64,000 nucleotides of DNA from the IMG/VR virus record IMGVR_UViG_3300045051_000978, positions 1 through 64,000 of that record; one strand, written 5' to 3'. A program made the translations under genes and the position numbers. Below, piece after piece: positions 2,589-14,135 of this stretch. The notes under the pieces were generated by a model. That model was not told the DNA's origin, searched no databases, and saw nothing but the letters and a program-made list of their open reading frames with translations. The stretch's first letter is position 1. Every line of letters begins with the position of its first letter. This DNA is from a virus.

Positions 2589-2595
2589 AAGGAAT

Positions 2596-2726
2596 GACGA
2601 TCAAGTTGAGCTGAGGATGTTTTAGGTGCTCTACCACTGAGCTACCCTGGCGTGTTGTGCCAGGGGTTGGACTCGAACCAACGACCACCCGCTATGTAGG
2701 CGATAACCCTCTGCATTCGGACCGTC
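2596..2726 (-). ncRNA. YrlA-type bacterial Y RNA (permuted tRNA-like domain)
   Basis: GACGGTC-CGAA...GGGTTATC, then T-arm (GTTGG-TTCGAGT-CCAAC), loop-closed acceptor stem (CCCTGGC-ACAACAC-GCCAGGG), D-arm (TAGCTCAGTGGTAGAGC), ending CTT-GATCGTC. Confidence 0.85.
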
Positions 2727-2730
2727 AAAA

Positions 2731-2837
2731 TGGCTGCCGGAGCTTCGTCTCAGAAGCACCACCCTTGCGGATGGATCGACGTGAGGACCAGCTGGGCAGT
2801 AACCGGTGTGCCTTCGCCATTTCCACCGTATCCGGCT
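2731..2837 (-). ncRNA. unassigned CCA-ended tRNA-like RNA
   Basis: GCCGGA/TCCGGC terminal stem followed by AGCCA; T-arm-like GCTTC-TGAGAC-GAAGC; no recognisable anticodon arm. Confidence 0.5.
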
Positions 2838-2846
2838 GTTCGAGAA

Positions 2847-2936
2847 TGGCGGATGGTGCAGGCTTCGCTCCTGCGCGGGTTTTACCCCGACTTCGCGCTT
2901 CCAACGCGATACCTTACTGGACTCGGTCAACCATCC
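2847..2936 (-). tRNA. tRNA-Ser(GGA)
   Basis: TCGCG-TTGGAAG-CGCGA, long variable arm, T-loop AGCGAAG, CCA. Confidence 0.88.
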
Positions 2937-2938
2937 AT

Positions 2939-3034
2939 TCCACCGTGATTTCCATGCTTACGTCGTCGCAGTGACTCAGAGCCTCCTTGCGGTACAGCTC
3001 TCGCACCCTAAGGGCGCTTTTGGCACACGGTGGA
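2939..3034 (-). ncRNA. unassigned structured RNA
   Basis: 9-bp terminal stem TCCACCGTG/CACGGTGGA fills the gap between two tRNAs; internal hairpins including a GCAA tetraloop. Confidence 0.45.
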
Positions 3035-3045
3035 TTTCTGCGAAA

Positions 3046-3135
3046 TGGCGGCTGGTGCAGGATTCCCACCTGCGTTCGTGTAAACGAAACCTCCGGGTTC
3101 AAGCCGGGTGCCTTAGGGTGCTCGGCCAACCAGCC
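3046..3135 (-). tRNA. tRNA-Ser(TGA)
   Basis: Anticodon loop CTTGAAC, long variable arm, T-loop TGGGAAT, CCA. Confidence 0.88.
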
Positions 3136-3139
3136 AAGA

Positions 3140-3274
3140 TCAGGCCAGGAACAGCTCTCTTTCTGAGGACCGCAGTCCCCAGCGATGTCCGCACCGGCAG
3201 TCCCTGTGCTGCGTTATGCCGGTAACCACGAACCTCCGGTGTTCCAGTAGGCGACGAGCCGCCTTTTGGCCTGA
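3140..3274 (-). ncRNA. unassigned structured RNA
   Basis: Terminal stem TCAGGCCA/TGGCCTGA with several internal stems (ACCGGCA/TGCCGGT, GGGGAC/GTCCTC). Confidence 0.45.
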
Positions 3275-3281
3275 AAAATAT

Positions 3282-3415
3282 GACGGTCAAGGGAGTAGAC
3301 AAGGATGTTTTAGCGCTCTACCACTGAGCTACGCTGGCGTATGGAGCCAACGGTGGGACTCGAACCCACGACCGCCTCATTAACATTGAGATAACCCTCA
3401 TCAGTTCGGACCGTC
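3282..3415 (-). ncRNA. YrlA-type bacterial Y RNA (permuted tRNA-like domain)
   Basis: GACGGTC-CGAA-CTGATGAGGG-TTATCTCAAT, T-arm GTGGG-TTCGAGT-CCCAC, loop-closed acceptor stem CGTTGGC-TCCATAC-GCCAGCG, D-arm, ending CCCTT-GACCGTC. Confidence 0.87.
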
Positions 3416-3421
3416 AAAAAT

Positions 3422-3514
3422 TGGCGGCGGATCGAAGCAACAGGTTTGGACCCTGATGTTTTGTATACGGGGCGGGTTCGTACAGCTGCCATAGCCCCTT
3501 CACTCCGACCCGCC
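3422..3514 (-). ncRNA. unassigned CCA-ended RNA with long terminal stem
   Basis: 13-bp stem GGCGGGTCGGAGT/GCTTCGATCCGCC followed by GCCA. Confidence 0.55.
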
Positions 3515-3529
3515 ATGCGGTTTTCAAAA

Positions 3530-3606
3530 TGGCGTCCTCGGCAGGAGTTGCACCTGCGGCCTCCACCTTCGCACGGTGGCGCTCTGGCTGACTGAGCTAC
3601 GAGGAC
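3530..3606 (-). tRNA. tRNA-Arg(GCG)
   Basis: CCACC-GTGCGAA-GGTGG, T-loop TGCAACT, CCA. Confidence 0.9.
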
Positions 3607-3610
3607 AAAT

Positions 3611-3686
3611 TGGTGCTCCCGGCAGGACTTCAACCTGCAACCGACGGGTTAGAACTCCGCCGCTCTGGCAATTGAGCTACGGGAGC
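3611..3686 (-). tRNA. tRNA-Arg(TCT)
   Basis: Anticodon loop GTTCTAA, T-loop TTGAAGT, CCA. Confidence 0.87.
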
Positions 3687-3697
3687 GTAGCTAAAGT

Positions 3698-4507
3698 ATG
3701 GACAGCTGGCTCCAAGCCTTCGGTGCGACAGGTCTGCTATTTCACGCGGCAGCGCTCTACGTCTGGATAACGCTACGCAAAAACGTAGACAAAAGCGTGT
3801 GGTGGTCTGTCACCATCGGCTACATCGCCCTTTTATCGCATCGCGCAAACGAGCTTGCCGGGTGGTCAAACGTTTACGCCCAGACAAGCGCAGTGGTGAT
3901 CGCGTACATCGCGCTCTACGCTGTCCTGCGCGCAAAACGGCACATCGCCCTGACCAAAGCATTCAGTCAGCTGATTGCGAAAATGGCGGAAGTTGAGCAG
4001 CCCAAGCGTCAAATGGCGCAGGCCCTTGCAGAACGCCTTATCGAACTGAAAGCCCAGGTAGACGTGCTGCAAACAGCACCGCCGGCAGAACCCCCCTTTC
4101 GCGATAGGCTAGCCACTCGACTGGCCAACCACTTCATCGAAGCCAGGGAACGGCTGCATACCATGGGCGCTCAGATGCAGCTCTACAAGGATGTTGCGGA
4201 CGCGTCGCCCGTGCCGATGGTGATTACCGATTTCAACGGCAAGCTCACGTACGCCAACCCAGCCTACCTGCGCTTCGTCGGCGCTTGCCTCAAAGACGTA
4301 CTGGGCGAAGGCTGGAGAAGCCGAGTTGATCCGGCTGTCATCGAAGAGGTGGCATCCGCCTGGCAGGCCGCAATACAACAAGAAAGCACGCACGCTCAAG
4401 GCGCAGTATCGTTCCTGGTAGACGGCGTGCCCATCAAATGCGTTTACAGCATGACACGCATCACTGAGGGCTACTGCGGATTCATACTGCCGACCAACGG
4501 TCGGTGA
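3698..4507 (+). CDS. membrane-anchored PAS domain protein
   Basis: Three hydrophobic N-terminal segments, coiled-coil linker, PAS pattern DASPVPMVITDFNGKLTYANPAY...LGEGW. Confidence 0.8.
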   Translation: MDSWLQAFGATGLLFHAAALYVWITLRKNVDKSVWWSVTIGYIALLSHRANELAGWSNVYAQTSAVVIAYIALYAVLRAKRHIALTKAFSQLIAKMAEVEQPKRQMAQALAERLIELKAQVDVLQTAPPAEPPFRDRLATRLANHFIEARERLHTMGAQMQLYKDVADASPVPMVITDFNGKLTYANPAYLRFVGACLKDVLGEGWRSRVDPAVIEEVASAWQAAIQQESTHAQGAVSFLVDGVPIKCVYSMTRITEGYCGFILPTNGR

Positions 4508-4510
4508 AAA

Positions 4511-4585
4511 TGGCTGCCAAGGTAGGACTCGCACCTACAACCACCTGATTAACAGTCAGGCGCACCACTATTGTGCTACTTGGCA
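4511..4585 (-). tRNA. tRNA-Asn(GTT)
   Basis: CCTGA-CTGTTAA-TCAGG, T-loop TGCGAGT, CCA. Confidence 0.92.
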
Positions 4586-4592
4586 ACGAAAT

Positions 4593-4679
4593 CGGTGCAC
4601 GCTACGGGAATCGAACCCGCCGCCGCTGACAAACACGGATCAACCCGTGTCCAACGTTCGCGCCAGCTTGCAGAATGCA
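4593..4679 (-). ncRNA. tRNA-like RNA with canonical T-arm, no anticodon arm, no CCA
   Basis: Imperfect acceptor-like stem, GCGGG-TTCGATT-CCCGT T-arm, long internal hairpin; ends CCG. Confidence 0.45.
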
Positions 4680-4685
4680 GAAGAT

Positions 4686-4761
4686 TGGTCGAGCTGGTGG
4701 GATTCGCACCCACGGCCTCCTCGCCCCGAACGAGGCGCGCTGACTGCTGCGCTACAGCTCG
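4686..4761 (-). tRNA. tRNA-Pro(CGG)
   Basis: CCTCG-TTCGGGG-CGAGG, C1-G72, T-loop TGCGAAT, CCA. Confidence 0.92.
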
Positions 4762-4765
4762 AAAA

Positions 4766-4840
4766 TGGTCGGGACGGTGAGCTTTGCACTCACGACCTCC
4801 TGCTCCCAAGGCAGGCGCGCTACTCCTGCGCTACGTCCCG
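4766..4840 (-). tRNA. tRNA-Pro(TGG)
   Basis: CCTGC-CTTGGGA-GCAGG, T-loop TGCAAAG, CCA. Confidence 0.92.
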
Positions 4841-5335
4841 TCTGAAATCTGAAGACACGTTCGTGCCGTCGCTGTTGAACGTCACCTCCGCCGGCATGCG
4901 TTTGACGACGATGTTTTTGAGCAGGTGCTCATGCACAGGGCACGAAACAGGCTCCGTGCAGATCGGAACAAACCAACCGACAAAACCGTCTACAGAAACG
5001 TAACCAACGTCCATGAAGCCCTGAAGGATTCCGCCGGTTGGCTGCACGTGTTCCACCGCCAGGTGCTTCACGCCGATCCGATGGCGCACCACGTGGTCCC
5101 ATACCGATTCAACCTTCAGGCGCGAGCTTGGCGTCAGTGTGCTCAGCCATCCGCGGCCGACGACCTGGTCAATCGGCTGCATGATCAGCTTCTGGTAGTT
5201 CAAGTTGATGTGAACCCAGTCGCCCGACTTGTCGGCCACGAACATCGGCACAGGACAGGACTCGACGATGGCCGTGCGAATCGTTTCGCGACTCGTAATC
5301 AGCGTGGTTGCAAGAGCCTCGGCGAGCGTACTCAT
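4820..5335 (-). CDS. stand-alone PAS domain protein
   Basis: ESCPVPMFVADKSGDWVHINLNY...VGRGW PAS pattern; TAGTTA upstream; stop lies inside tRNA-Pro(TGG). Confidence 0.8.
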   Translation of the reverse strand: MSTLAEALATTLITSRETIRTAIVESCPVPMFVADKSGDWVHINLNYQKLIMQPIDQVVGRGWLSTLTPSSRLKVESVWDHVVRHRIGVKHLAVEHVQPTGGILQGFMDVGYVSVDGFVGWFVPICTEPVSCPVHEHLLKNIVVKRMPAEVTFNSDGTNVSSDFRRDVAQE

Positions 5336-5354
5336 CCCAGATAACTAGCTGAAA

Positions 5355-5431
5355 TGGTCGGGATGGCGGGCTTCGCACCCGCGACCTCCAGTCCCCCAGA
5401 CTGGCGCGCTACCTTTCTACGCTACATCCCG
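5355..5431 (-). tRNA. tRNA-Pro(GGG)
   Basis: CCAGT-CTGGGGG-ACTGG, T-loop TGCGAAG, CCA. Confidence 0.92.
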
Positions 5432-5453
5432 TCAAAAAGCTGTTCTCTCCCGC

Positions 5454-5717
5454 ATGGAACGCAACTGGAGAGAGGAAATCGCTGAGCGCAACGCGGAAGC
5501 ACTGTTCATCGGCGATCCCGAAGACCGTAAGTTCGACGAAGCCATTGTCGGCATCGGCTCACGCTGTGGCCAGCCTGACCTTCTTGTCTACAGCTACGAG
5601 AAGATCATCGACGTACTCGTCAAGGACGGCATGGAGCGTGAGGAGGCCACGGAGTACGCCGACTTCAACATCGTCGGTGCCTGGGTGGGCGAGCACACGC
5701 CGATCATCCTCACCTGA
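5454..5717 (+). CDS. phage hypothetical protein (FDEAIVG...EY.DFNI.GAWVGE.TP type)
   Basis: 87 aa acidic ORF of a type recalled from phage genomes; GTTCT upstream. Confidence 0.8.
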   Translation: MERNWREEIAERNAEALFIGDPEDRKFDEAIVGIGSRCGQPDLLVYSYEKIIDVLVKDGMEREEATEYADFNIVGAWVGEHTPIILT

Positions 5718-5723
5718 AAAGGA

Positions 5724-5821
5724 TTGCCGATCAGGAACGAGCACCCCGTGTGGCATTGGCCCCTTTACTTCCGTCGGGGTGACGTGGGGGCCTTCAGGCA
5801 CACCGCTCGTTCTGGCGGCAA
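5724..5821 (-). ncRNA. unassigned rod-like hairpin RNA
   Basis: Nested stems TTGCCG/CGGCAA, AACGAGC/GCTCGTT, GTGTG/CACAC, GGCCCC/GGGGCC with internal loops. Confidence 0.5.
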
Positions 5822-5823
5822 AA

Positions 5824-5942
5824 TGGCGGGGAAGGCTGGACTTCAACCAGCTTCCTGACACCGTCCGGTGCCCGACTCGTCTGTGAAGGTGTCCGGCGGA
5901 CATGTGCTCGCCGTTTGCTCTTCACGCTTCGTCTTCATCCCC
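5824..5942 (-). ncRNA. CCA-ended RNA with tRNA-like acceptor and T arms, 119 nt
   Basis: GGGGATG/CTTCCCC followed by GCCA, T-arm GCTGG-TTGAAGT-CCAGC, no standard D or anticodon arm. Confidence 0.6.
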
Positions 5943-5946
5943 AGAG

Positions 5947-6024
5947 TGGCGGTGCGTACGGGCTTCGCTCCCGTGGCCTTCCGGTAGACAGCCGGGCGCT
6001 CTGACTGGACTGAGCTAACGCACC
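5947..6024 (-). tRNA. tRNA-Asp(GTC)
   Basis: Anticodon loop CTGTCTA, G73, T-loop AGCGAAG, CCA. Confidence 0.9.
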
Positions 6025-6058
6025 AAAGTAACAGGCGACCGTGTTCAGCGGTCGCCAG

Positions 6059-6163
6059 TGAAGTCCCCAGGATTCCATCACGTTCCTGCCTTAGATGATG
6101 GCGTCTGAACAACGCCAGTGGGATTCCGAGTACCCACATTCCGATCCGTTCACCTGGGCTTCA
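6059..6163 (-). ncRNA. unassigned structured RNA
   Basis: Terminal pairing TGAAG-CCCAGG/CCTGGG-GA-CTTCA with several internal hairpins. Confidence 0.4.
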
Positions 6164-6166
6164 GAA

Positions 6167-6244
6167 TGGCGGACTGCGCCTGACCTCGCGTCTCCCATGC
6201 CCGGAGGCAAGGATCGCGGAGATTGCGCGAAACAGGCGCAGTCC
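6167..6244 (-). ncRNA. CCA-ended minihelix-like RNA
   Basis: Perfect 12-bp stem GGACTGCGCCTG/CAGGCGCAGTCC followed by GCCA. Confidence 0.6.
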
Positions 6245-6253
6245 AGAAAGCGT

Positions 6254-6724
6254 TTACCACGTGGCGTCGGTATCGCGCACGCGTCGAAGAAACAGAAACT
6301 CAATTGGCTCACCGCGCCGAATCGCGGCAACAGAGCGATGGTAACCGTCGCCGTGGTTCATCTCGTCCGAAGCCCATTCCCTGAACGAAGCTCCACTTCC
6401 AACGATGTACGGCCACCTCTCCTGACCTGCATCCCACAGGCTCGCAATGTGCCGAATACGCTTTTCGTCAGAAGCGTGCAGCGGCTTCTCAGAGCCAAGC
6501 TTCCAGCCGATACCGTACCACGCCTTGCGCATCTTCTCGGCTGGATACGCTTGCAATCTGTAAACGTATTTTCGGACGTGCTCATCGTACTCGTCCTCCT
6601 CGACGCCACCATCCACGATCATGTACTGCCAGAGTGCGTCTTTGGCACGTTTTGGCAGGCTGTCGTACGAAATCCAGCGCCCTTCGCAAAGAAGGGCCTC
6701 AACGATGCGCTGAGCTGACAGCAT
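6254..6724 (-). CDS. hypothetical protein with N-terminal xxLLxE peptide, possibly ParB-like (GDGYHR)
   Basis: 156 aa ORF starting MLSAQRIVEALLCE; DGYHR resembles the ParB/Srx motif. Confidence 0.7.
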   Translation of the reverse strand: MLSAQRIVEALLCEGRWISYDSLPKRAKDALWQYMIVDGGVEEDEYDEHVRKYVYRLQAYPAEKMRKAWYGIGWKLGSEKPLHASDEKRIRHIASLWDAGQERWPYIVGSGASFREWASDEMNHGDGYHRSVAAIRRGEPIEFLFLRRVRDTDATW

Positions 6725-6739
6725 GCTTTACGTACAGAA

Positions 6740-6815
6740 TGGCTGCCGCGGTGGGCCACGATCCCACAACCTTCGGAGTCAGAGTCCGACGCTCTGCCAA
6801 TTGAGCTACGCGGCG
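6740..6815 (-). tRNA. tRNA-Gln(CTG)
   Basis: TCGGA-CTCTGAC-TCCGA, mismatched 1:72 pair, T-loop ATCGTGG, CCA. Confidence 0.9.
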
Positions 6816-6829
6816 TCTACGAAATACTC

Positions 6830-6938
6830 CAGCGGGAGTTTGTCCTGCGGTCGTCTCGGATGTGCATGTACCGGTCATCCTCGTCGCCGTGGCTCAGGAC
6901 TGTTGCATCCACGCGTTGCAATGCGCGCAGCCCCGCTG
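6830..6938 (-). ncRNA. unassigned structured RNA
   Basis: CAGCGGGG/TCCCGCTG terminal stem, inner stems GTCCTG/CAGGAC and GGATG/CATCC. Confidence 0.45.
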
Positions 6939-6942
6939 AAAT

Positions 6943-7078
6943 TGGTGGACCTGCGGAGGAGTCGAACCTCCAGGCAGCGTGACCGGTCTGGCACTCGCGC
7001 CGCCTCCATCCCTGGGATTCACCCGCGGCCCGGATTGATTACCGGCAAAGTTCCCACACCGCAGGATCGGGCAAGCCC
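6943..7078 (-). ncRNA. CCA-ended RNA with alanine identity elements, 136 nt
   Basis: GGGCTTGC/GCAGGTCC stem (G3:U70), A73, CCA, canonical T-arm GGAGG-TTCGACT-CCTCC; no standard anticodon arm. Confidence 0.65.
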
Positions 7079-7082
7079 AAAA

Positions 7083-7173
7083 TGGTGGTAGCGGCTGGAG
7101 TTGCACCAGCGGTGTTTACCTCAGGGGTGACGGATTTACAGTCCGTGTCGTTCGCTGCTACGGGTACGCTACC
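7083..7173 (-). tRNA. tRNA-Tyr(GTA)
   Basis: ACGGA-CTGTAAA-TCCGT, long variable arm, T-loop TGCAACT, CCA. Confidence 0.9.
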
Positions 7174-7751
7174 AAGAAATCGTTTGCGAGCTTACGCACG
7201 CGCTCCAGGCACTTCTCGTAGTGCGCATTGGCCCAGACGTGCATGAACGTCGGCTTTTGACCACCGAGCAGCGACCGCGGATTGGCGATCACGTGCTCTG
7301 GAAAAAGGGCTCGTCTCTTCACGACAGCCGGAAGAGCCAAAAGGCTGGCCATGAAATCTTGCTCCTGCAACCGGTGATCCAGCCAGTTCGGCATGCTGTC
7401 GTGGACCGTAGACAGAAGCCAGTTTGACCATCTGCCGGCCTTGTACAGGACTGCGCCGCTACAGATGCCGTTGTAGTCCTGCGACGCCGTGAACTCAACC
7501 GACTCGTCGTATACAATCGGATCGCACTTCACAGGTACGATGTCGATGTCCATCCACATGACGTAGTCGAACGCCTGGAGCTTCGAGCGCACCAGCGCGT
7601 AGCGGCTTTTGTATGGATGAACGCCCTGGGGTGAAGACTGTAGTTCGTACTCCCACCCATTCCGAGCGCACCAGCGCTGGACAGCAGGTGAGGCGGCTTC
7701 CGCGTACGGTCTGTACCTGGCGTCAACCGCCTGGAAAATAAGCCGACCCAT
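7158..7751 (-). CDS. GT-A fold glycosyltransferase (GT34-like)
   Basis: FDYVMWMDID DxD motif, DYNGICSGAVL and EQD motifs. Confidence 0.75.
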   Translation of the reverse strand: MGRLIFQAVDARYRPYAEAASPAVQRWCARNGWEYELQSSPQGVHPYKSRYALVRSKLQAFDYVMWMDIDIVPVKCDPIVYDESVEFTASQDYNGICSGAVLYKAGRWSNWLLSTVHDSMPNWLDHRLQEQDFMASLLALPAVVKRRALFPEHVIANPRSLLGGQKPTFMHVWANAHYEKCLERVRKLANDFLVAYP

Positions 7752-8203
7752 CAGTACCTCGAAAACCCTCGGCGGCTGAAAGCGCGGTCGTAGCTTTTGA
7801 CATCTTCGAGGGACCGACGCTGAAGCGATCCGATCCAGTAGCGAATTTCGTCCGCTCCACGCTCAAGCGCGCCTGCGTGCACGAAAATGGCCTTGCGCCG
7901 TCGCCACAGCTTCCACCCGTCGCCTTCCTGGCGTGCCAGGCGTGCCTTCACCGTCACGTAACCTTTGTCTACGGAATTGATCAGTGTCAGCCGAACGTGC
8001 GTGTAAACGCGACCGTTCGCGTTGAGTGCGGTGATGGGCTCGTGAAGTGGGATGTTCAGCACCGCGACGTTGTCGCTGAGCGCCGTCATCCCAAGCTCTG
8101 TTGCGATCTCTCTGATCGGCGAAGGCTGGTCCAGAAAATCGCGAATGGCGTCCAGGTCGGAGTCATCGTCGTCCACGCCGTTCTCGCCGTTCTCGATCAG
8201 CAT
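7751..8203 (-). CDS. hypothetical protein
   Basis: Start moved to ATG 8203 (MLIENG) because the longer ORF runs through tRNA-Trp; stop overlaps the next ATG. Confidence 0.65.
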   Translation of the reverse strand: MLIENGENGVDDDDSDLDAIRDFLDQPSPIREIATELGMTALSDNVAVLNIPLHEPITALNANGRVYTHVRLTLINSVDKGYVTVKARLARQEGDGWKLWRRRKAIFVHAGALERGADEIRYWIGSLQRRSLEDVKSYDRAFSRRGFSRY

Positions 8204-8215
8204 CCTGGCGGAAAG

Positions 8216-8288
8216 TGGCACGGAGAGAGGGTGCTGCCCCCTCCAGGACTGGTTTTGGAGACCGGTCTGCACAGCTGGTGCCCTCCGT
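8216..8288 (-). tRNA. tRNA-Trp(CCA)
   Basis: Anticodon loop CTCCAAA, G73, aberrant T-loop GGCAGCA, CCA. Confidence 0.8.
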
Positions 8289-8289
8289 A

Positions 8290-8529
8290 TCAAAGCTCTG
8301 GAAACATGCCTCGTTGCTTGCCGCGGCTGTAGTAGCGCGGGTCCTCGGCGAGGTGGTCGAGTGCGATCTCCTCGGCGACCTTCGGGTCGTTCGTGTGCTC
8401 CATCTCGACCTCGATCCCCATCTTCAGCTCCTCGGGATCGACGCCGCTGGTGTCGTGCAGCTCGCCTTGACGACTTCCACCTGGGATGTGGTCTTCAAGG
8501 AGTCTGTTTACGATCAAGCGCGCATTCAC
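8290..8529 (-). CDS. DUF5661-like phage protein with N-terminal LLE peptide
   Basis: ELKMGIEVEMEHT...IALDHLAEDPRYY motif; TAGTTA 4 nt upstream of GTG. Confidence 0.8.
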   Translation of the reverse strand: MNARLIVNRLLEDHIPGGSRQGELHDTSGVDPEELKMGIEVEMEHTNDPKVAEEIALDHLAEDPRYYSRGKQRGMFPEL

Positions 8530-8542
8530 GCCCTAACTAGAG

Positions 8543-8618
8543 TGGTGGAGCGGGGGAGAGTTGCACTCCCGACCTTCGCAATGCCATTGCGACGTTCTGC
8601 TATCTGAACTACCGCCCC
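8543..8618 (-). tRNA. tRNA-Ala(GGC)
   Basis: G3:U70, TCGCA-ATGGCAT-TGCGA, T-loop TGCAACT, CCA. Confidence 0.92.
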
Positions 8619-8623
8619 GAAAG

Positions 8624-8880
8624 TGGGGGCTGTCGGGGTTTTCACCCTTTGTCGGCAACAGCCGGGTGCCGGCGCAGTTGATTTCACGCTTTGTCGTCCC
8701 GTGCTTCAGCGCCAGGGATCGAACCTGGCCTACCGAGTAACCCCGGCGTTCACCGTAAACTACGCGAAGCACGTCTACTGCGAAAGCAAGCGGCACCCCT
8801 TTTACGCTGACGGACAGATTCGTGATTTCGAGGTCGCACGACCGACCCGCTGCCGTCCCACGGACAAGCCAAGTGCCGCT
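8624..8880 (-). ncRNA. unassigned multi-domain RNA region with an embedded tRNA-like domain and a CCA end
   Basis: Closed domain 8789-8880 (AGCGGCACTT/GGGTGCCGCT); cloverleaf 8700-8773 with 4-nt anticodon-position loop and TTCGATC T-loop; terminal GGCTGTTG/CGACAGCC followed by CCCA. Confidence 0.5.
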
Positions 8881-8883
8881 AAA

Positions 8884-8959
8884 TGGTGGAAGTGACAGGA
8901 CTCGCACCTGCAACCTGATGCTTGCAAAGCACCTGCTCTACTAATTGAGCTACACCCCC
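8884..8959 (-). tRNA. tRNA-Ala(TGC)
   Basis: G3:U70, anticodon loop TTTGCAA, T-loop TGCGAGT, CCA. Confidence 0.92.
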
Positions 8960-8970
8960 GTGAAAACTGT

Positions 8971-9204
8971 TTACCAAACGACCGGATTGGAAGTTCGGTT
9001 ACCGATCTGCTCGCCGTTCGCAAGGTACGACTGCTCGCCAGAACTGTAAACGAATTTCAACTCATGACCGGTATCGTTCCGGAGGCTGGCTCCTGGAGCC
9101 ACCGTGAGAGGTTCGCCGATGGTCAATGTCTGGCCCTCCAGCTTGAGGCTCGGGTACCGGCCCAGGCGCGAAACGCGCACACTTCCTTTCAACGTCATGC
9201 TCAT
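8971..9204 (-). CDS. hypothetical protein
   Basis: 77 aa from ATG 9204 (MSMTLKGSVRV), GTTCT upstream; the longer ORF overlaps tRNA-Gly. Confidence 0.6.
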   Translation of the reverse strand: MSMTLKGSVRVSRLGRYPSLKLEGQTLTIGEPLTVAPGASLRNDTGHELKFVYSSGEQSYLANGEQIGNRTSNPVVW

Positions 9205-9218
9205 GCTTGGTTCAGAAC

Positions 9219-9294
9219 TGGAGCACCCGACCGGCTTTGCTCCGGCGACATCCACGTTGGCAACGTGGTGCTCTACTGGCTGAGCTACGGGTGC
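9219..9294 (-). tRNA. tRNA-Gly(GCC)
   Basis: CCACG-TTGCCAA-CGTGG, U73, T-loop AGCAAAG, CCA. Confidence 0.92.
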
Positions 9295-9299
9295 AGAAA

Positions 9300-9405
9300 T
9301 GGGTTGCAGACGCAACGTTGAGAGGTAAGCTCCGGGGCGCTCGCTTCGGTGGAGAGTTGGCACTCGATCAACACCTGGGCAAGCGCCCCGGAACCATTCC
9401 TACAA
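9300..9405 (-). ncRNA. unassigned long hairpin RNA ending in CCA
   Basis: GTTCCGGGGCGCTTGC/GCGAGCGCCCCGGAGC stem, terminal TTGTAG/CTGCAA followed by CCCA. Confidence 0.5.
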
Positions 9406-9538
9406 AGAACAGAACACCCAGTTGCATGGCCTTTTGCCGTGCACCCGCTGGTTTACTGATCTCCAGGGCTCCGTAACCCCTTCGACCTTCTCGGCGGTCT
9501 TCGCGACCTTATCGCAGTCGCTCGCGGCCTTACGGCTT

Positions 9539-9576
9539 AAAATGAAAAACCCGCTATCCGTTTCCGGGTAGCGGGC
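9539..9576 (-). terminator. attenuator terminator upstream of the RNA array
   Basis: CCCGCTACCCG-GAAA-CGGATAGCGGG followed by TTTTTCATTTT. Confidence 0.8.
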
Positions 9577-9601
9577 TAAAAAGTCCTGATGACCCTCCAG
9601 C

Positions 9602-9730
9602 TTATCCGCTACCCTCCACTGGTTCCTCCGAACGAATTCCAAACGAGTCACACGGCAGGGAGGAACCACTAAGGGCGTAATGCCCTTTCGCGTTCAACCA
9701 CATCGTGGCGTTTGTCTGTTGGAGTCTCAT
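9602..9730 (-). CDS. putative leader peptide, 42 aa (MRLQQTNATMWLNAKGHYALSGSSLPCDSFGIRSEEPVEGSG)
   Basis: ORF between promoter and terminator; its last codons (GGGTAGCGG, 9614-9606) are complementary to the terminator 5' arm (CCGCTACCC, 9574-9566). Confidence 0.6.
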   Translation of the reverse strand: MRLQQTNATMWLNAKGHYALSGSSLPCDSFGIRSEEPVEGSG

Positions 9731-9776
9731 TTTCGGGTCAGTCGGCGCACCACCCGGCGCGCCGTCAGTGCGGATG

Positions 9777-9810
9777 AATCTATCGATCTGAGTTGTTTAC
9801 AGCAACAACT
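9777..9810 (-). promoter_or_regulatory. sigma70-like promoter with overlapping inverted repeat
   Basis: TTGCTG-17 nt-TAGATT; perfect inverted repeat AGTTGTT-N6-AACAACT at 9791-9810 covers the -35. Confidence 0.6.
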
Positions 9811-9886
9811 ATTTTCGGCTCCGTTTACAGATTTTCGTAAGACCTCTGGTAGGCAACAGGTTACAGACGAAAAATTCCTGGTGGAT

Positions 9887-10228
9887 TCACGGAACCGCTA
9901 CGCCCTCAACCGGCGGCGTGATGAACAGCGGAGGCAGTGTCGTCTTCACGTGGTTGCGCACGCCGGGCAGGATCAACCTCTTGACCTGCTGATGGATAGG
10001 GCTGGAGCCTGTGCGCCACGCACCGCGGTAGCCGATGGCGATGCCCTCGCCGCGTTGCGCCTTGGACACGCGATACTGCACCTGCGCCTCGGTGAGGCCC
10101 GTGTGCTCCGCGATGGCCTTGGTGGTCATCCCGAGCATCGCCAGGGACACCACCGCAACGTCCTGCGCGACACGACCGTCGAAGGTGATCTTGTGCCGCG
10201 TCTTGAATTTCTTGGTGTTCGTGTTCAT
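9887..10228 (-). CDS. HTH DNA-binding protein
   Basis: GMTTKAIAEHTGLTEAQVQYRV helix-turn-helix; ATG 10228 overlaps the upstream stop. Confidence 0.65.
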   Translation of the reverse strand: MNTNTKKFKTRHKITFDGRVAQDVAVVSLAMLGMTTKAIAEHTGLTEAQVQYRVSKAQRGEGIAIGYRGAWRTGSSPIHQQVKRLILPGVRNHVKTTLPPLFITPPVEGVAVP

Positions 10229-10569
10229 CGCGGGCTCATGTGCGAAGCCACCTTGAGAGCCGTGGTCAGGACGGCGAGGTTCAGACCACACCGCGGGCAG
10301 AAACACGGCGCGTCGCCGCCCTGGGCCTCGACAATCGTCGGTCGCTGCGAGTCGCGGTACGCCTTGGTGCGCCGATCCACGCGAGGCGTGTCCAGCACCG
10401 TGAGCGCGGTCGATCCATTCTGCCGCAGCGCTGCGCCGCGTGGGCCGAGAGCCGTCGGAATCAGACCGGAGTGTTTACGACCTACGTGCATGCGCAAAGC
10501 CGCCTGAGCTTGCATCGCGCTGGGCTTGGTGAACTTCCGGCCGCAGTCCTTACATTCGAGTGTTGTCAT
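10225..10569 (-). CDS. zinc-finger protein (C2H2-like plus CPRC)
   Basis: CKDCGRKF...LRMHVGRKH and FCPRCG; translationally coupled to the ligase gene. Confidence 0.7.
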   Translation of the reverse strand: MTTLECKDCGRKFTKPSAMQAQAALRMHVGRKHSGLIPTALGPRGAALRQNGSTALTVLDTPRVDRRTKAYRDSQRPTIVEAQGGDAPCFCPRCGLNLAVLTTALKVASHMSPR

Positions 10570-12584
10570 GCTTCTTCCTCTTCGCTTTGGTCGAGCCCTG
10601 CGGCAACAGGAACGCTCGTTCCCATCAGACCGTAGAGCTTCTCTTCGTCGATCACCTCAACGCCGTGCTTCTTGGCTGCGTTGGCTTTGGTAGCTCCGGC
10701 ATCAGCACCCATGATCAAATAGTGCACCTTTGCGCTGACGCTGGACTTGACGGTCCCGCCAGCCGCTTCGATGCGACGAATGACCTGATCACGTGTGCCG
10801 GATTGCAATGAACCGGTGATGACGAAAACTTTGCCCGTAAGCGGACCGGCGGACGCGGTCTCCGCTTCGAGCTTGTACCCCAAAGCGACCAAGCGCTCCA
10901 CCTCTTCGGCGTTGGCTTCCAGGTACGAAACGAAGCTCGCAGTCTTGACGCGCCCAAGCACGCGCTGCATGGCCGACTGACCGAATTCGTTCGGCCGAAG
11001 CGCTTCGATCATCGCGTCCAGGTTGGGCCACTGCGTCGCCACGTCCTGGCACGTGCTCTTGCCCCAGCCCTCGATGCACAGCGCGTTGAGCTTGCGCCAG
11101 AGGGGCGCGCTTTTGGCCGCGGCAATGCCCTCGCTGACCTTCTTGCGCTGTGCCGGCTTGAGAAACGAAAAATCCGACGCTGCGAACAAGTCGGACAGCC
11201 GTCGGATTCCGTTTTCAACGAAGAGCTTGGCAACGACATCGCCACACCCGTCGATGTCGAGAGCGCCTTTGCCTGTGGCGTAGATCAATCGCGCTTCCAC
11301 CTGCTCGGCGCAGTCGGGATTGGCGCAGTACAGGTCCACGAAACCGGCCGGCTGCTCCAGGGGACCCTTGCAGCACGGGCACACCAGCGGGATTCTGTAG
11401 ACGCCTTCCAACGCCTTCTTGGCGAGGCCCATCACTTTCGGAATGATCTCGGCCGATTTCTCCACCAGGACCGAGTCCCCAATGTTGATCCCAAGGCGAA
11501 CGATTTCGTCCTGGTTGCAGAGCGATGCGCGCCGAACGGTCGTTCCGCCCAGGAGCACAGGTTCCAGCTCCGCCACGGGCGTGATACGCCCTGTGCGACC
11601 CACCTGGAGCGTCACGTCCAGAAGCTTGGTGGCCTTGCGCTCCGGCGGGTACTTGTAGGCGACTGCCCACTTGGGAGCCCGCGTTCCCTCGCCAAGCTCG
11701 CGCTGGCGGGCGAGGCTGTTGATCTTGAAGACGAGGCCGTCGGTCGCAACGCATAGGCTTTTTCGTCGAAAATCGGCGTCTGCGATTTCGCGCTCAAGCT
11801 GCGCTGGATTGCGAACCGTGACCACACGCGCAACCGCGTCGCTTTCGCGCACGACAGGAATCGTGTAAACGGTTTGGAACCCGAGTTCCTGAAAGAGCGC
11901 GATCAGCGCGTCGTGCGTGTCGATGCCCTCGATCTGGTTGGGCGTGCCGTGGGCCACGAACGAAAGCCGGCGCTTGGCGACCTCGGCCGGGTCCTTCAGT
12001 TTGAGCGTGCCGGCCGCGGCGTTGCGGGCGTTGGCAAAGGGCTCGTCACCGGCCTCCACAGCTTCCGCGTTCAGCTCCTCGAACACGGTGCTTTGCATGT
12101 ACACCTCGCCCGTCACCTCGATGTTCCGCGGGTCTCCCATCAGGCGCAGCGGGATGGTCTCGATGGTCCTCGCGTTGACCGTCACGTCATCGCCATGCTC
12201 GCCGTCGCCTCGCGTGACGGCCTTGACGAGCTTGCTGTCCACGTAGATCAGCTTCAGGGACAGCCCGTCGATCTTGGGCTCCAGGACGAGTTCGCGTTCG
12301 TCCTGCACGCCGCGCAGCACTTCGTCAGCTGTAAACGCGTTGTCCAACGAGAGCATCCGGCGTGCATGCTTGACCTTGCTGAACGAGACAACCGGAGCAC
12401 CGATGCGCTGGGTAGGGCTGCTGGGGTCGTGATGCTCGGGATGCTTCTGTTCCAGGTCTCGAAGCTCCCGGAAGAGCCTGTCGTATTCCTCGTCGGTCAC
12501 CGTCGGCGCAGCGAGGACGTGGTACTCGTGGTTGTATTGCGTGAGCAGCTCGCGCAGCTGCTCGATACGGTCAACAGGACTCAT
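10566..12584 (-). CDS. ligA: NAD-dependent DNA ligase
   Basis: EPKIDG adenylation motif, TRGDG, FANARNAAAG, QVGRTG, Cys4 zinc finger, C-terminal BRCT domain. Confidence 0.97.
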   Translation of the reverse strand: MSPVDRIEQLRELLTQYNHEYHVLAAPTVTDEEYDRLFRELRDLEQKHPEHHDPSSPTQRIGAPVVSFSKVKHARRMLSLDNAFTADEVLRGVQDERELVLEPKIDGLSLKLIYVDSKLVKAVTRGDGEHGDDVTVNARTIETIPLRLMGDPRNIEVTGEVYMQSTVFEELNAEAVEAGDEPFANARNAAAGTLKLKDPAEVAKRRLSFVAHGTPNQIEGIDTHDALIALFQELGFQTVYTIPVVRESDAVARVVTVRNPAQLEREIADADFRRKSLCVATDGLVFKINSLARQRELGEGTRAPKWAVAYKYPPERKATKLLDVTLQVGRTGRITPVAELEPVLLGGTTVRRASLCNQDEIVRLGINIGDSVLVEKSAEIIPKVMGLAKKALEGVYRIPLVCPCCKGPLEQPAGFVDLYCANPDCAEQVEARLIYATGKGALDIDGCGDVVAKLFVENGIRRLSDLFAASDFSFLKPAQRKKVSEGIAAAKSAPLWRKLNALCIEGWGKSTCQDVATQWPNLDAMIEALRPNEFGQSAMQRVLGRVKTASFVSYLEANAEEVERLVALGYKLEAETASAGPLTGKVFVITGSLQSGTRDQVIRRIEAAGGTVKSSVSAKVHYLIMGADAGATKANAAKKHGVEVIDEEKLYGLMGTSVPVAAGLDQSEEEEA

Positions 12585-12599
12585 GTTCTATTAGGGAAG

Positions 12600-13025
12600 A
12601 TGAATGAAATCGCCAATTTCGTCAGCAGCCTTGCACTGCTGGCTGCCGTCGCAATCGTGATCGTCGCCTGCGCGACGCTTTGCGATCCCTTCGTAAACGT
12701 CTTGAAGGCTCTTGAACGATTCCTGACGGCCAGCACGGACAAATTGTTTACAATTTCTGCGCCACAAGTCCAGCCTGAAAAAACGGCTGAACCTGAGAGG
12801 CCGAAAACCGTGCTGCCAGAAGAGGCGAAAGCCAAGCCAGAAGAGCCTCGGCCGAACGCCTATTGCATCGAGTGCGGAACGCCTATTCGGCGCGACCCGA
12901 TAAGCTCCATCGTTCTGCCAGGCACCTCGTACCTGACCTTTGAATGCGCCGAGTGTGGGGAGATGAGCCTGAAGCCGCAGCGCTCAACCGAGGAGGTTGG
13001 CAACGACGCGCAGAGCCCCACGTGA
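12600..13025 (+). CDS. membrane-anchored zinc-ribbon protein
   Basis: N-terminal TM helix, CIECG and CAECG; ATG 12600 downstream of GTTCT. Confidence 0.65.
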   Translation: MNEIANFVSSLALLAAVAIVIVACATLCDPFVNVLKALERFLTASTDKLFTISAPQVQPEKTAEPERPKTVLPEEAKAKPEEPRPNAYCIECGTPIRRDPISSIVLPGTSYLTFECAECGEMSLKPQRSTEEVGNDAQSPT

Positions 13026-14135
13026 GGACTCTTCCGTCTGCTGATCAGCCTTGATGTCGGCGACGAGCTGCTTGATCTGTCGCACCACTGCTGGGTCGCC
13101 GTCCGCGATGCCCTGCATGATGCTCTGCACCTGGCTGGCCGGCATTCTGACGATCTGATCGTAGACGTAGGGCATCAGGTTCTGGTCGTCGCCAAGAAGC
13201 TGAAGGAAACGCCGGTACAGCGGGGCTCCGATGTTGATGTCCCAGGTTTCTCCACCCAGCGTATCCGCCTGACCCTGCGCGTACTTGCGCGTCTCCGGAT
13301 CGTCCTCGTCCGAATAGCTGAGGAACTCCATCAGGCCCTTGGTCAGCTCCTGAATCAGGACCGGGAACGCCACTGCCTCTGCGTGGATTTCGGTGACGCC
13401 GTCGTCGCCAGCACGCAGCTGAACACGCCCGCCAGCCCCGCCACCCATCTGCTGCATCTGTGCCTGCATCTCCTCGGGGACCGCCCAGTACATGAACTCC
13501 CCGAACGACATCATCATGCCGAACGACTGCAACAGACGCGGATCGATCTGGTTGATCCTGTCGGCCACCTGGTGGTAGGCGTAGTTCTTGTTGATCGCCG
13601 CACCCTGGATCATCGCGTTGATGAACCGGCGCTTCTGCTTCTCGGCGTCGAGTTCGGCCGCGATTTGAGGCACGTTCAGCTGCTGAGCTGCTGCGGGTGG
13701 CGGCGCGGCCGGCGCGTGGCGCATGCCGGCGGTGCGCACCTGCATCACCAGCTTGGCGATGATGCGCAGATCGCCTGCTTCCACCGCCTGACGAGCCGTG
13801 GAGAACTCCGGCAACGACAGCACGACCTCAACTGCGGCCTGCTCCAGCTCGTCCTTGTGCTGCGCCTGAACCTGCATCGAGTGCTGCATCGCCCGCATGA
13901 AGAGCTGCTGCACCGAACCAGGATTCTGCTGAATCTGCTGCGGCGTCAGACCAGAATAGCGCGCCAGCTTGGCGATGACGGCGCGGTACTGCTCAGCACC
14001 CAATCGCTCGACGCTCTGGTTCGAGAGTCGATACGGATGGCCACCCTGCTCGATTTTTCGGCGGCGTCCACGGTCGATGAAATCCGGGTCCCCACCCAGG
14101 TCCATCGCCATCTCGAACAGGGAGCGGGCGTTCAT
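12984..14135 (-). CDS. hypothetical helical protein, possibly internal virion protein
   Basis: Start MNARSLFE at 14135 overlaps the stop of the upstream ORF. Confidence 0.8.
   Translation of the reverse strand: MNARSLFEMAMDLGGDPDFIDRGRRRKIEQGGHPYRLSNQSVERLGAEQYRAVIAKLARYSGLTPQQIQQNPGSVQQLFMRAMQHSMQVQAQHKDELEQAAVEVVLSLPEFSTARQAVEAGDLRIIAKLVMQVRTAGMRHAPAAPPPAAAQQLNVPQIAAELDAEKQKRRFINAMIQGAAINKNYAYHQVADRINQIDPRLLQSFGMMMSFGEFMYWAVPEEMQAQMQQMGGGAGGRVQLRAGDDGVTEIHAEAVAFPVLIQELTKGLMEFLSYSDEDDPETRKYAQGQADTLGGETWDINIGAPLYRRFLQLLGDDQNLMPYVYDQIVRMPASQVQSIMQGIADGDPAVVRQIKQLVADIKADQQTEESSRGALRVVANLLG

What the first reader, a model, noticed from the sequence alone, without database searches (positions are those of the whole stretch)
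9539..9810. Leader-peptide attenuator gating the RNA array
Seen: TTGCTG-17-TAGATT promoter, 42-codon ORF (9730-9602), then a GC hairpin with a U tract. The last leader codons (GGGUAGCGG, 9614-9606) are perfectly complementary to the terminator 5' arm (CCGCUACCC, 9574-9566), so the two structures exclude each other. Known: this is trp/his-type attenuation geometry. Inference: a ribosome reaching the stop masks the antiterminator and allows termination. The leader has no run of one amino acid, so it would sense general translation failure rather than one starvation.
Basis: partly seen in the sequence, partly recalled or inferred. Interest (0 to 1): 0.85.

Follow-up and report, generated by a model that had tools for sequence, protein, structure and literature searches.

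The report
Conserved attenuator before phage tRNA array
A soil phage and five relatives carry, just ahead of their tRNA gene cluster, a conserved RNA switch (terminator versus antiterminator) with a short reading frame ending on the switch, which probably lets ribosome traffic decide whether the tRNA genes are transcribed.

Summary
On the minus strand there is a promoter-like site (-35 9805-9800, -10 9782-9777), a 42-codon ORF (9730-9602) and a GC hairpin with a U tract (9575-9539). The ORF's last codons (9614-9606) are perfectly complementary to the terminator's 5' arm (9574-9566). The "RNA array" is 18 tRNA genes (9294-208) in a 127-kb viral record.

Five other distinct sequences from relatives (ligase 55%, neighbouring HTH protein 31-36% identical) keep the same layout. 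The three arms have changed sequence but stay mutually complementary: 59 of 60 antiterminator cells pair, with 3 compensatory pairs. No Rfam family matches.

Evidence that the ORF is translated:
- It is the only stop-free frame in 6 of 6 sequences.
- It always ends in TAA next to arm 1.
- Its start codon is kept as TTG or ATG in the five relatives.
- It has 0 indels in 144 columns, against 8 in 164 flanking columns.

Against this, substitutions show no third-position bias, no RNA data exist, and the block is also constrained at the nucleotide level.

Verdict: a real attenuator (about 0.85). Its role as a sensor of general translation failure is inference. It is a new variant of a known kind in a new setting.

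The parts
9791..9810 (-). 20-bp palindrome AGTTGTT-N6-AACAACT overlapping the -35 box. Possible operator for the neighbouring GerE/LuxR-like HTH protein (inference).
   Evidence: Read from the sequence. Relatives have A/T-rich inverted repeats at the same place. HTH fold.
9800..9805 (-). -35-like hexamer TTGCTG
   Evidence: Relatives have TTGCAT or TTGCAA at the matching position. Unchanged in the close relative in run X5, whose two differences here fall in the spacer (9792, 9793).
9777..9782 (-). -10-like hexamer TAGATT, 17 nt after the -35. The transcript would start near 9770.
   Evidence: Not called by the consensus scan.
9743..9764 (-). 5' hairpin H1: CGGCGCGCC, loop GGGU, GGUGCGCCG
   Evidence: Folds. 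Conserved helix in RNAalifold, columns 15-37.
9602..9730 (-). Leader ORF of 42 codons plus TAA. The start codon lies in an unpaired A-rich stretch 12 nt after H1.
9672..9686 (-). Conserved hairpin AGGGC-AUUAC-GCCCU inside the ORF
   Evidence: columns 116-135. Relatives have AGGGU-loop-GCCCU with variable loops.
9621..9667 (-). Hairpin P3 (GGUUCCUCC ... GGAGGAACC) just before arm 1. Its 3' side holds the invariant AGGAACC.
   Evidence: Relatives have a shifted hairpin, CCUGUGU ... ACACAGG.
9606..9614 (-). Arm 1, the antiterminator 5' arm GGGUAGCGG. It lies in the last three sense codons and is preceded by an invariant GGAGG.
9575..9601 (-). Inner helix and loop of the antiterminator (GCUGGAGGGUC, AUCAG, GACUUUUUAGC). 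Specific to the window's lineage.
9566..9574 (-). Arm 2, CCGCUACCC, shared by the antiterminator and the terminator
9550..9575 (-). Intrinsic terminator hairpin: 11-position stem with one C.A mismatch and a GAAA loop. The stem alone scores -17.4 kcal/mol.
   Evidence: Covariation, columns 240-268.
9539..9549 (-). U tract UUUUUCAUUUU
   Evidence: Conserved in 6 of 6 sequences.
9329..9538 (-). Second conserved structured RNA domain of unknown identity: GNRA-capped hairpins, a long-range helix, and a 13-bp hairpin (9394-9382 with 9341-9329). This is what the attenuator gates first.
   Evidence: 54 predicted pairs, 11 with compensatory changes. No differences in the X5 relative across 9323-9791. 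No Rfam match.
9219..9294 (-). tRNA-Gly(GCC), the first gene of the tRNA array that runs down to position 208
9887..10228 (-). 113-aa HTH protein gene directly upstream. Its synteny with the element is conserved.

Best explanation
This is a promoter-proximal transcription attenuator whose outcome is most likely set by a ribosome translating a short leader ORF.

Proposed sequence of events:
1. Transcription starts near 9770, from a promoter that the adjacent GerE-like HTH protein may control.
2. The RNA forms a 5' hairpin, then exposes a start codon in an A-rich unpaired stretch.
3. A ribosome translates 42 codons (48 in the relatives) to a TAA that directly follows arm 1.
4. If the ribosome keeps up with RNA polymerase, it covers arm 1 as arm 2 emerges. 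Arm 2 then pairs with arm 3, and the hairpin plus U tract ends the transcript near 9540.
5. If no ribosome is there, or it lags behind, arm 1 pairs with arm 2. In the window that helix extends to 20 pairs (-30.9 against -20.3 kcal/mol for the terminator state). The terminator cannot form, and polymerase runs on into the downstream structured RNA and the tRNA genes.

Shown here: the structures, their mutual exclusion, their conservation with compensatory changes, and a conserved frame-preserving ORF.

Inferred: that the promoter is used, that the ORF is translated, that ribosome position is the signal, and that the purpose is to raise phage tRNA supply when translation falters.
For: 1. Anatomy confirmed.

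2. Homologous elements occur in five other distinct sequences (L002 = L003 = L023, L024, L025, L026, L028). They share the order ligase, Zn-finger, HTH, element, tRNAs.

3. Antiterminator helix: 59 of 60 cells pair and 3 of 10 pairs carry changes on both sides. Sliding one arm by 1-3 columns gives only 30-55% pairing. 1 of 500 shuffles reaches the observed covariation score.

4. Terminator: it forms in 6 of 6 sequences (-16.3 to -20.1 kcal/mol for the stem alone), with compensatory pairs and a conserved U tract.

5. Folding: the nascent RNA forms the antiterminator before arm 3 exists, in 6 of 6. Masking through 10 nt beyond the UAA gives the terminator in 6 of 6.

6. ORF signature:
- The leader frame has 0 stops in the 150 nt before the TAA in 6 of 6 sequences. 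The other two frames have 2-6 each.
- All five relatives have exactly 48 codons from a shared start column, TTG in four and ATG in L026.
- L026 carries a 13-nt insertion with an in-frame TGA and a GGAG just upstream of that start.
- Indels: 0 events in the 144 ORF columns (44 of them variable), against 8 events in the 164 columns from the -35 box to the U tract outside the ORF. Three of those 8 lie in the 26 columns right after the TAA.
- The window's ORF differs in length by 18 nt, a multiple of three.

7. Real genes of this phage also lack Shine-Dalgarno sites, so the leader's lack of one is not evidence against translation.

8. A close relative in run X5 has 0 differences across 9323-9791. 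It has 6 in 9311-9322, 7 in 9792-9877 and 14 in 9896-10115, inside the HTH gene.
Against: - No direct evidence of transcription, 3' ends or translation.
- Variable columns in the relatives' ORF fall 10, 17 and 17 on codon positions 1, 2 and 3. There is no third-position excess.
- By chance alone, an open frame of at least 42 codons appears in 12-16% of dinucleotide shuffles per lineage. For two independent lineages that is only about 0.02.
- Only two deep lineages exist, the window and a fairly tight group of five. All three compensatory pairs therefore come from one split.
- No predicted protein resembles the peptide.
- Zero variation in the close relative implies nucleotide-level (RNA) constraint beyond what a generic leader peptide would need.
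- Leader codons are not enriched for those read by the array's tRNAs: 19 of 41 against 51.7% in phage genes, p = 0.53.
- In the five relatives the terminator is thermodynamically at least as stable as the antiterminator. Their default state is therefore less clear than in the window.
- The promoter is weak by consensus.
Confidence: 0.55

Rival explanations
1. The same terminator/antiterminator switch is flipped by something other than a ribosome. A protein, a small molecule, a tRNA or a 30S subunit would bind the conserved leader RNA (H1, the AGGGY hairpin, the invariant AGGAACC and GGAGG next to arm 1). The open reading frame would be incidental.
For: - Nucleotide-level conservation is strong: 0 differences across 9323-9791 in the X5 relative.
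- There is no third-position bias.
- Both lineages fold into strongly structured leaders: z -3.17 for the window and z -7.05 for L002.
- AGGAACC and GGAGG are invariant beside arm 1.
- Three GGAGG motifs lie within 9629-9594, in a genome with about 1.1 per kb per strand whose genes lack Shine-Dalgarno sites.
Against: - Helices upstream of the switch are only partly conserved between the two lineages. P3 is shifted, and 4 of the 9 outer pairs around the AGGGY hairpin break in the window. That is unlike a fixed aptamer.
- No Rfam family matches, T-box included.
- It does not explain the indel-free, stop-free frame, the TTG/ATG start or the TAA abutting arm 1.
- The neighbouring HTH looks like a DNA-binding GerE/LuxR domain, not an RNA binder.
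Confidence: 0.25
2. The promoter-to-terminator unit is a constitutive short transcript of about 230 nt: an sRNA, or a small-protein gene with its own terminator, like lambda PR'-6S-tR'. Downstream genes would be expressed from other promoters, or by a factor that makes polymerase termination-resistant. The arm 1/arm 2 pairing would serve folding or stability, not regulation.
For: - The unit has its own promoter-like site, a 5' hairpin and a strong terminator.
- A regulator gene sits immediately upstream, as Q does in lambda (that comparison is recalled, not from a call).
- In the relatives an A tract lets the terminator extend into a hairpin of about 19-21 pairs (-24.6 to -31.8 kcal/mol).
Against: - Arm 1 is kept complementary to arm 2 through 3 compensatory changes, although pairing it would destroy the terminator. 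That is the hallmark of conditional termination.
- In the window the antiterminator is about 10 kcal/mol more stable than the terminator state, so an unregulated RNA would rarely terminate.
- I saw no obvious promoter between the U tract and the first downstream gene when reading the sequences. No tool tested this.
Confidence: 0.15
3. The complementarity and the ORF are chance features of a GC-rich intergenic region.
For: Long open frames are common in this 58-63% GC DNA. The scan tool found terminator-like sites at the rate of shuffled sequence.
Against: - The whole layout is conserved in six distinct sequences, with compensatory changes.
- Fold z-scores are -3.2 to -7.1.
- The block is invariant in a close relative whose flanks differ by about 5%.
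Confidence: 0.03

Closest known systems
Leader-peptide attenuators of amino-acid operons (trpL, hisL, leuL, thrL, pheL; Rfam Trp_leader, His_leader, Leu_leader, Thr_leader)
   Same: A promoter-proximal short ORF, an antiterminator that competes with an intrinsic terminator, and a stop codon placed so that a terminating ribosome covers the antiterminator's 5' arm.
   Different: - No run of regulatory codons.
- No convincing 1:2 pause or anti-antiterminator hairpin. RNAalifold offers only 4-6 weak pairs.
- Untranslated RNA is predicted to read through rather than super-attenuate.
- The cargo is a structured RNA plus tRNA genes in a phage.
- No Rfam match. The best is Thr_leader at 24.6 bits on L028, against a gathering score of 55.
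Ribosome-mediated attenuation of antibiotic-responsive genes (vmlR PMC9226507, msrD PMC10314930, hflXr PMC6310831; search listing and start of abstracts seen only)
   Same: A short uORF with no amino-acid-specific codon run. Ribosome position or stalling decides whether a premature intrinsic terminator forms, so the element reports the state of translation in general.
   Different: - Those leaders use drug-dependent arrest on short peptides and control resistance factors in Firmicutes.
- Here the ORF is 42-48 codons and no arrest motif was identified.
- The output is tRNA genes of a soil phage.
T-box riboswitches
   Same: A terminator/antiterminator decision linked to the tRNA economy of the cell.
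   Different: - No Rfam T-box hit.
- No conserved UGGN bulge in the antiterminator. The UGGU seen in three relatives is lost in L026 and L028.
- T-boxes control aminoacyl-tRNA synthetase and amino-acid genes, not tRNA genes.
Lambda PR'-6S RNA-tR' with Q antitermination (recalled, not from a call)
   Same: The order regulator gene, promoter, roughly 200-nt short RNA, strong intrinsic terminator, then a long operon.
   Different: - Q acts on RNA polymerase at the promoter and needs no RNA alternative pairing. This element has a conserved antiterminator.
- The neighbouring protein is a 113-aa GerE/LuxR-like HTH, not a Q family member.

Membership tests
Leader-peptide (trp/his-type) transcription attenuator | Intrinsic terminator (GC hairpin plus U tract) between the promoter and the regulated genes | tested here: met
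   Present in 6 of 6 sequences. Stems score -16.3 to -20.1 kcal/mol and the U tract is conserved. Compensatory pairs appear.
Leader-peptide (trp/his-type) transcription attenuator | An antiterminator that shares one strand with the terminator | tested here: met
   59 of 60 cells pair and 3 pairs are compensatory. It forms first in the nascent RNA in 6 of 6 sequences.
Leader-peptide (trp/his-type) transcription attenuator | A short translated ORF whose stop places the ribosome on the antiterminator strand | tested here: inconclusive
   The ORF is present, and its stop lies 0-1 nt after arm 1 in 6 of 6 sequences. It is the only open frame and has 0 indels against 8 in the flanks. Translation itself is not shown, and there is no codon-position bias.
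Leader-peptide (trp/his-type) transcription attenuator | A run of codons for the regulating amino acid | tested here: not met
   The peptides show no such run. There is no enrichment for codons read by the array's tRNAs.
Leader-peptide (trp/his-type) transcription attenuator | A 1:2 pause or anti-antiterminator hairpin that gives termination when nothing is translated | tested here: inconclusive
   RNAalifold pairs an upstream GCCUGU with arm 1: 6 pairs in the relatives, 4 in the window, one compensatory. This is weak, and it competes with hairpin P3.
Leader-peptide (trp/his-type) transcription attenuator | Match to a curated Rfam leader model | tested here: not met
   No hit at gathering score. 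Thr_leader scores 24.6 bits against 55, and PyrG_leader 21.6 against 65.
T-box riboswitch | T-box sequence and bulge in the antiterminator, plus a specifier loop | tested here: not met
   No Rfam T-box match. No conserved UGGN in the antiterminator.
Ribosome-mediated (drug or stall sensing) attenuator | A uORF with a defined arrest site, and a stall that frees the antiterminator | not testable with these tools
   The geometry is compatible. Whether any arrest or stall occurs needs experiments.

The most novel reading that the evidence does not exclude
The phage carries a sensor of translation capacity. The sensor is a generic 42-48 codon leader whose only job is to be translated at normal speed.

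If ribosomes lag, the antiterminator wins and the phage switches on its own tRNA array and an unidentified structured RNA. Lag could come from host tRNA cleavage by anticodon nucleases, tRNA depletion late in infection, or amino-acid starvation.

That would be a homeostatic feedback loop from translation to viral tRNA supply. To my knowledge this kind of control has not been described for any tRNA operon. Four literature searches found none.
Probability: 0.3. Interest if true: 0.8.

Novelty: new variant of a known kind. Interest (0 to 1): 0.62.

Why it matters
Large phages often carry tRNA arrays, but how these are regulated is essentially unknown. A conserved attenuator ahead of such an array would give the first cis-regulatory handle on viral tRNA expression.

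If the ribosome is the effector, the phage would couple its tRNA supply to how well translation is going. That bears directly on the arms race with host defences that target tRNAs.

The element is compact, belongs to no Rfam family, and can be tested with standard reporter and in vitro transcription assays. The neighbouring structured RNA of about 210 nt (9538-9329) is a second, unexplained conserved RNA worth describing.

Tried and rejected
Rfam. At gathering scores on the window, only tRNAs matched. At E up to 10 on 9250-9950, and E up to 1 on L025, L026 and L028, nothing in the element reached a family threshold.

Similarity and relative searches:
- A phage GenBank blastn of 9200-10600 gave no match.
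- The window's HTH alone found no relative in viral contigs. The alignment A2 found only the two contigs already known.
- The DNA pattern from the downstream domain hit 16 stretches, 14 unrelated and 2 on the known contigs.
- The window-like HTH group (A9) found nothing in genome contigs or viral contigs.
- A structural pattern for the switch hit only the known contigs in viral contigs. In genome contigs it gave 8 hits, none with arm complementarity.
- A covariance model of the switch (R1) found one copy per genome and no second copy in 190,276 bases. That included the whole 126.9-kb record, L004, L027 and L029.

Expression. No RNA holder was listed among the 15 runs, so expression could not be examined. 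The contigs laid show variation only.

Peptide searches:
- No candidate for the 42-aa peptide.
- The 6-peptide profile gave 4 hits, all multi-stretch matches in unrelated long or repetitive proteins.
- Short ORFs are rarely called by gene finders, so these blanks say little.

Codon logic. There is no enrichment for codons read by the array's tRNAs.

Frame-wise peptide similarity. Frame 0 scored 18-30 against 2-17 for the other two frames. I treat this only as a hint, because stops penalise the other frames.

Stop-codon recoding. I checked this because of the CUA-anticodon tRNA. Coverage by open frames of at least 150 codons is already 0.59-1.00 per 10 kb under code 11, so the test is uninformative.

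T-box and Q-like readings were considered and rejected, for the reasons given under Closest known systems.

Tools and files I could not use:
The DNA of the window-like relatives P0008 and P0009 therefore could not be fetched.
- No supplementary files of papers were requested.
- For papers, I saw only search listings and the starts of abstracts.
Full report
**Setting.** The window is the first 64 kb of a linear 126,921-base viral record that CheckV rates 76% complete. The minus strand reads, in order:
- an NAD-dependent DNA ligase (12584-10566);
- a 114-aa Zn-finger-like ORF (10569-10225);
- a 113-aa helix-turn-helix protein (10228-9887);
- a 592-nt non-coding stretch (9886-9295) that holds the finding;
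- 18 tRNA genes interspersed with ORFs, running to position 208.

Rfam adds one more tRNA, at 769-695. The "RNA array" of the finding is therefore a phage tRNA array, cut off by the end of the contig.

**Check of the observation.**
- TTGCTG at 9805-9800, a 17-nt spacer, and TAGATT at 9782-9777.
- A 42-codon ORF from ATG 9730 to TAA 9604-9602.
- A terminator stem, 9575-9565 paired with 9560-9550, with one C.A mismatch and a GAAA loop.
- The U tract UUUUUCAUUUU at 9549-9539.
- GGGUAGCGG (9614-9606), the exact complement of CCGCUACCC (9574-9566).

Three qualifications apply.
- The promoter matches only 7 of 12 consensus positions. The scan tool called no promoter in 1-14000 and did not list this terminator.
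- The antiterminator is larger than described. After a 4-nt bulge it continues for 11 more pairs. It is the minimum-energy fold of 9620-9535 (-32.8 kcal/mol, z -4.26, 0 of 200 shuffles as stable).
- The whole 251-nt leader folds at -99 kcal/mol (z -3.17).

**Relatives.**
- The ligase found two IMG/VR contigs, identical to each other in this region (L002, L003), at 55% identity.
- A profile of the HTH protein found 13 family members.
- An alignment of eight of them found 7 metagenome loci.
- Five of those loci carry the element. One (L023) is identical to L002. L027 and L029 lack it downstream of the HTH gene.

This gives six distinct sequences: the window, L002, L024, L025, L026 and L028. They fall into two deep lineages, the window against the other five. 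HTH identity to the window is 31-36%. All have tRNA-Gln and tRNA-Gly and further tRNAs downstream. In the five relatives a 104-aa ORF sits between the element and the first tRNA. No further relatives turned up in viral, metagenome or GTDB genome collections. The element occurs once per genome.

**The switch is conserved with compensation.** The arm sequences are:
- window: GGGUAGCGG, CCGCUACCC, GGAUAGCGGG;
- relatives: GGUAAGCAGG, CCUGCUUACC, GUAAGCAGGGG;
- L028: one arm-2 position changed to U, which still pairs with arm 1 as G.U and with a changed arm 3 as U-A.

For the antiterminator, 59 of 60 cells form standard pairs and 3 of 10 pairs changed on both sides. Sliding one arm by 1-3 columns drops pairing to 30-55%. 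All three compensatory pairs stem from the single split between the two lineages.

RNAalifold on the full leaders recovers the terminator with compensatory pairs, and also the 5' hairpin H1 and the AGGGY-loop-GCCCU hairpin. It predicts 60 pairs in all, 14 of them with compensation.

Energies:
- Window: antiterminator -30.9 kcal/mol against -20.3 for the terminator state.
- Relatives: antiterminator -18.1 to -19.1 kcal/mol. Their terminator stem alone scores -16.3 to -20.1, and -24.6 to -31.8 once the A and U tracts pair.
- In 6 of 6 sequences the antiterminator is the best fold of the nascent RNA before arm 3 exists.
- In 6 of 6 sequences the terminator is the best fold once RNA through 10 nt beyond the UAA is masked.

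**Is the leader translated?**

For:
- In all six sequences the frame ending at the TAA beside arm 1 has no stop in the preceding 150 nt. The other two frames have 2-6 stops each.
- The five relatives all have exactly 48 codons from one start column, TTG in four and ATG in L026.
- L026 carries a 13-nt insertion immediately upstream of that start. The insertion brings an in-frame TGA and a GGAG 7 nt before the ATG.
- Among the five relatives the 144 ORF columns hold 44 variable columns but no indel event. The 164 other columns between the -35 box and the end of the U tract hold 8 events, three of them (1, 2 and 1 nt) in the 26 columns right after the TAA. At the flanking rate about 7 events would be expected inside the ORF.
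- The window's ORF is 6 codons shorter, a multiple of three, and a protein alignment spans both ends.
- Real genes of this phage lack Shine-Dalgarno sequences, so the leader's lack of one carries no weight. Its start lies in an unpaired A-rich stretch after H1.

Against:
- Variable columns fall 10, 17 and 17 on codon positions 1, 2 and 3.
- An open frame of at least 42 codons arises in 12-16% of dinucleotide shuffles per lineage.
- No predicted protein resembles the peptide.
- Leader codons are not enriched for those read by the array's tRNAs: 19 of 41 against 51.7% in 23 phage genes, p = 0.53.

The pattern tolerates substitutions but keeps the frame and shows no amino-acid constraint. That is what a leader would show if only the act of translation matters. 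It remains indirect evidence.

**Nucleotide-level constraint.** Contigs from one run (X5) belong to a close relative.
- Record 17 (9481-10300) shows 22 differences, and all 22 are listed. None lies in 9481-9791, 7 lie in 9792-9877, and 14 lie in 9896-10115 inside the HTH gene.
- Record 15 (9247-9510) differs only at 9311-9322 and, apparently, at 9278.

The 469-nt block 9323-9791 is therefore invariant while its flanks differ by about 5%. The two differences inside the promoter fall in the spacer (9792, 9793) and not in the hexamers. This argues for function. It also means the RNA sequence itself is constrained, unless a recent recombination or sweep explains the invariance.

**What lies between the attenuator and the tRNAs.** The stretch 9538-9329 is a second conserved structured domain. 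It has hairpins capped by GNRA loops, a hairpin with a conserved CGAUAA loop, a long-range CCRC/GYGG helix and a final 13-bp hairpin (about 19 bp in the relatives). RNAalifold predicts 54 pairs, 11 with compensatory changes, across the window and four relatives. L028 has unrelated sequence there apart from the final hairpin. No Rfam family matches. Its role is unknown. The long terminal hairpin could be an RNase III-type processing site (inference).

**The neighbour.** The HTH protein models (mean pLDDT 75.8) as a helical bundle. Its best structural neighbours are GerE, DegU, DosR and NarL DNA-binding domains, with Foldseek probability 0.96-1.00, weak E-values of 0.25-0.6, and target-normalised TM-scores of 0.57-0.71. 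A 20-bp palindrome (9810-9791) overlaps the -35 box, and the relatives have A/T-rich inverted repeats at the same place. The promoter is plausibly controlled by this protein (inference). Attenuation would then be a second layer of control.

**Mechanism and rivals.**
A ribosome that keeps pace and reaches the TAA masks arm 1 and allows termination. An absent or lagging ribosome allows the antiterminator and read-through into the structured RNA and the tRNA genes.
- Rival 1 (0.25): the same switch driven by a non-ribosomal effector that binds the conserved leader RNA. A cluster of three GGAGG motifs within 9629-9594, in a genome that does not use Shine-Dalgarno sites, is unexplained and could point to 30S or another binder.
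- Rival 2 (0.15): a constitutive short RNA with other means of downstream expression.
- Chance (about 0.03) is excluded.

The physiological reading, feedback from translation capacity to phage tRNA supply, is inference.

**Comparison with known systems.** The element works like a leader-peptide attenuator. It fails two defining features of the trp/his class: it has no regulatory codon run and no clear 1:2 hairpin. It matches no Rfam leader model.

In logic it is closer to the ribosome-mediated attenuators found upstream of antibiotic-responsive genes (listing and abstract starts only). Its setting differs: a phage, controlling tRNA genes.

Four full-text searches found no description of an attenuator ahead of a phage tRNA array. 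The searched library omits most subscription journals.

**Verdict.** The feature is a real, conserved, previously uncatalogued attenuator: a new variant of a known kind, of moderate to high interest.

Noticed in passing
window 9329-9538 (minus strand): A second conserved structured RNA domain lies between the terminator and tRNA-Gly. It has GNRA-capped hairpins, a CGAUAA loop, a long-range helix and a long terminal hairpin. RNAalifold predicts 54 pairs, 11 compensatory. There is no Rfam match, and L028 lacks most of it.
   Followed up: partly
window 36958-37031 (minus strand): A tRNA with anticodon CUA, which ARAGORN labels Pyl and which looks like an amber suppressor, lies far from the array. 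A crude comparison of ORF coverage under code 11 and with each stop read through was uninformative.
   Followed up: partly
window 695-769 (minus strand): Rfam calls a tRNA here (40.7 bits) that ARAGORN did not list.
   Followed up: no
window 9594-9629 (minus strand), and genome-wide: Three GGAGG motifs fall within 36 nt around arm 1, where the genome averages about 1.1 per kb per strand. The start regions of the 35 real genes listed showed no such motif just upstream. AGGAACC and GGAGG next to arm 1 are invariant in all six sequences. Unexplained.
   Followed up: partly
window 9887-10228 and 9791-9810 (minus strand): The 113-aa protein next to the element models as a GerE/LuxR-type HTH. A 20-bp palindrome overlaps the -35 box, so these are a possible regulator-operator pair.
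   Followed up: partly
window 4820-5335, 7158-7751 and 8290-8529 (minus strand): Protein genes are interspersed in the tRNA array: a PAS-domain ORF (E 2e-5), a weak glycosyltransferase family 34 match, and a DUF5661 protein.
   Followed up: no
L026 about 2930-2958: A 13-nt insertion just upstream of the leader start brings an in-frame TGA and a GGAG 7 nt before an ATG. That ATG replaces the TTG of the other four relatives.
   Followed up: yes
L002 9387-9701, and G000 101434-101643: The 104-aa ORF that follows the element in the relatives has no counterpart at that position in the window. It has a 41%-identical match elsewhere in the same phage record (tblastn E 3.5e-8) and hits PHROG 839, of unknown function.
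   Followed up: partly
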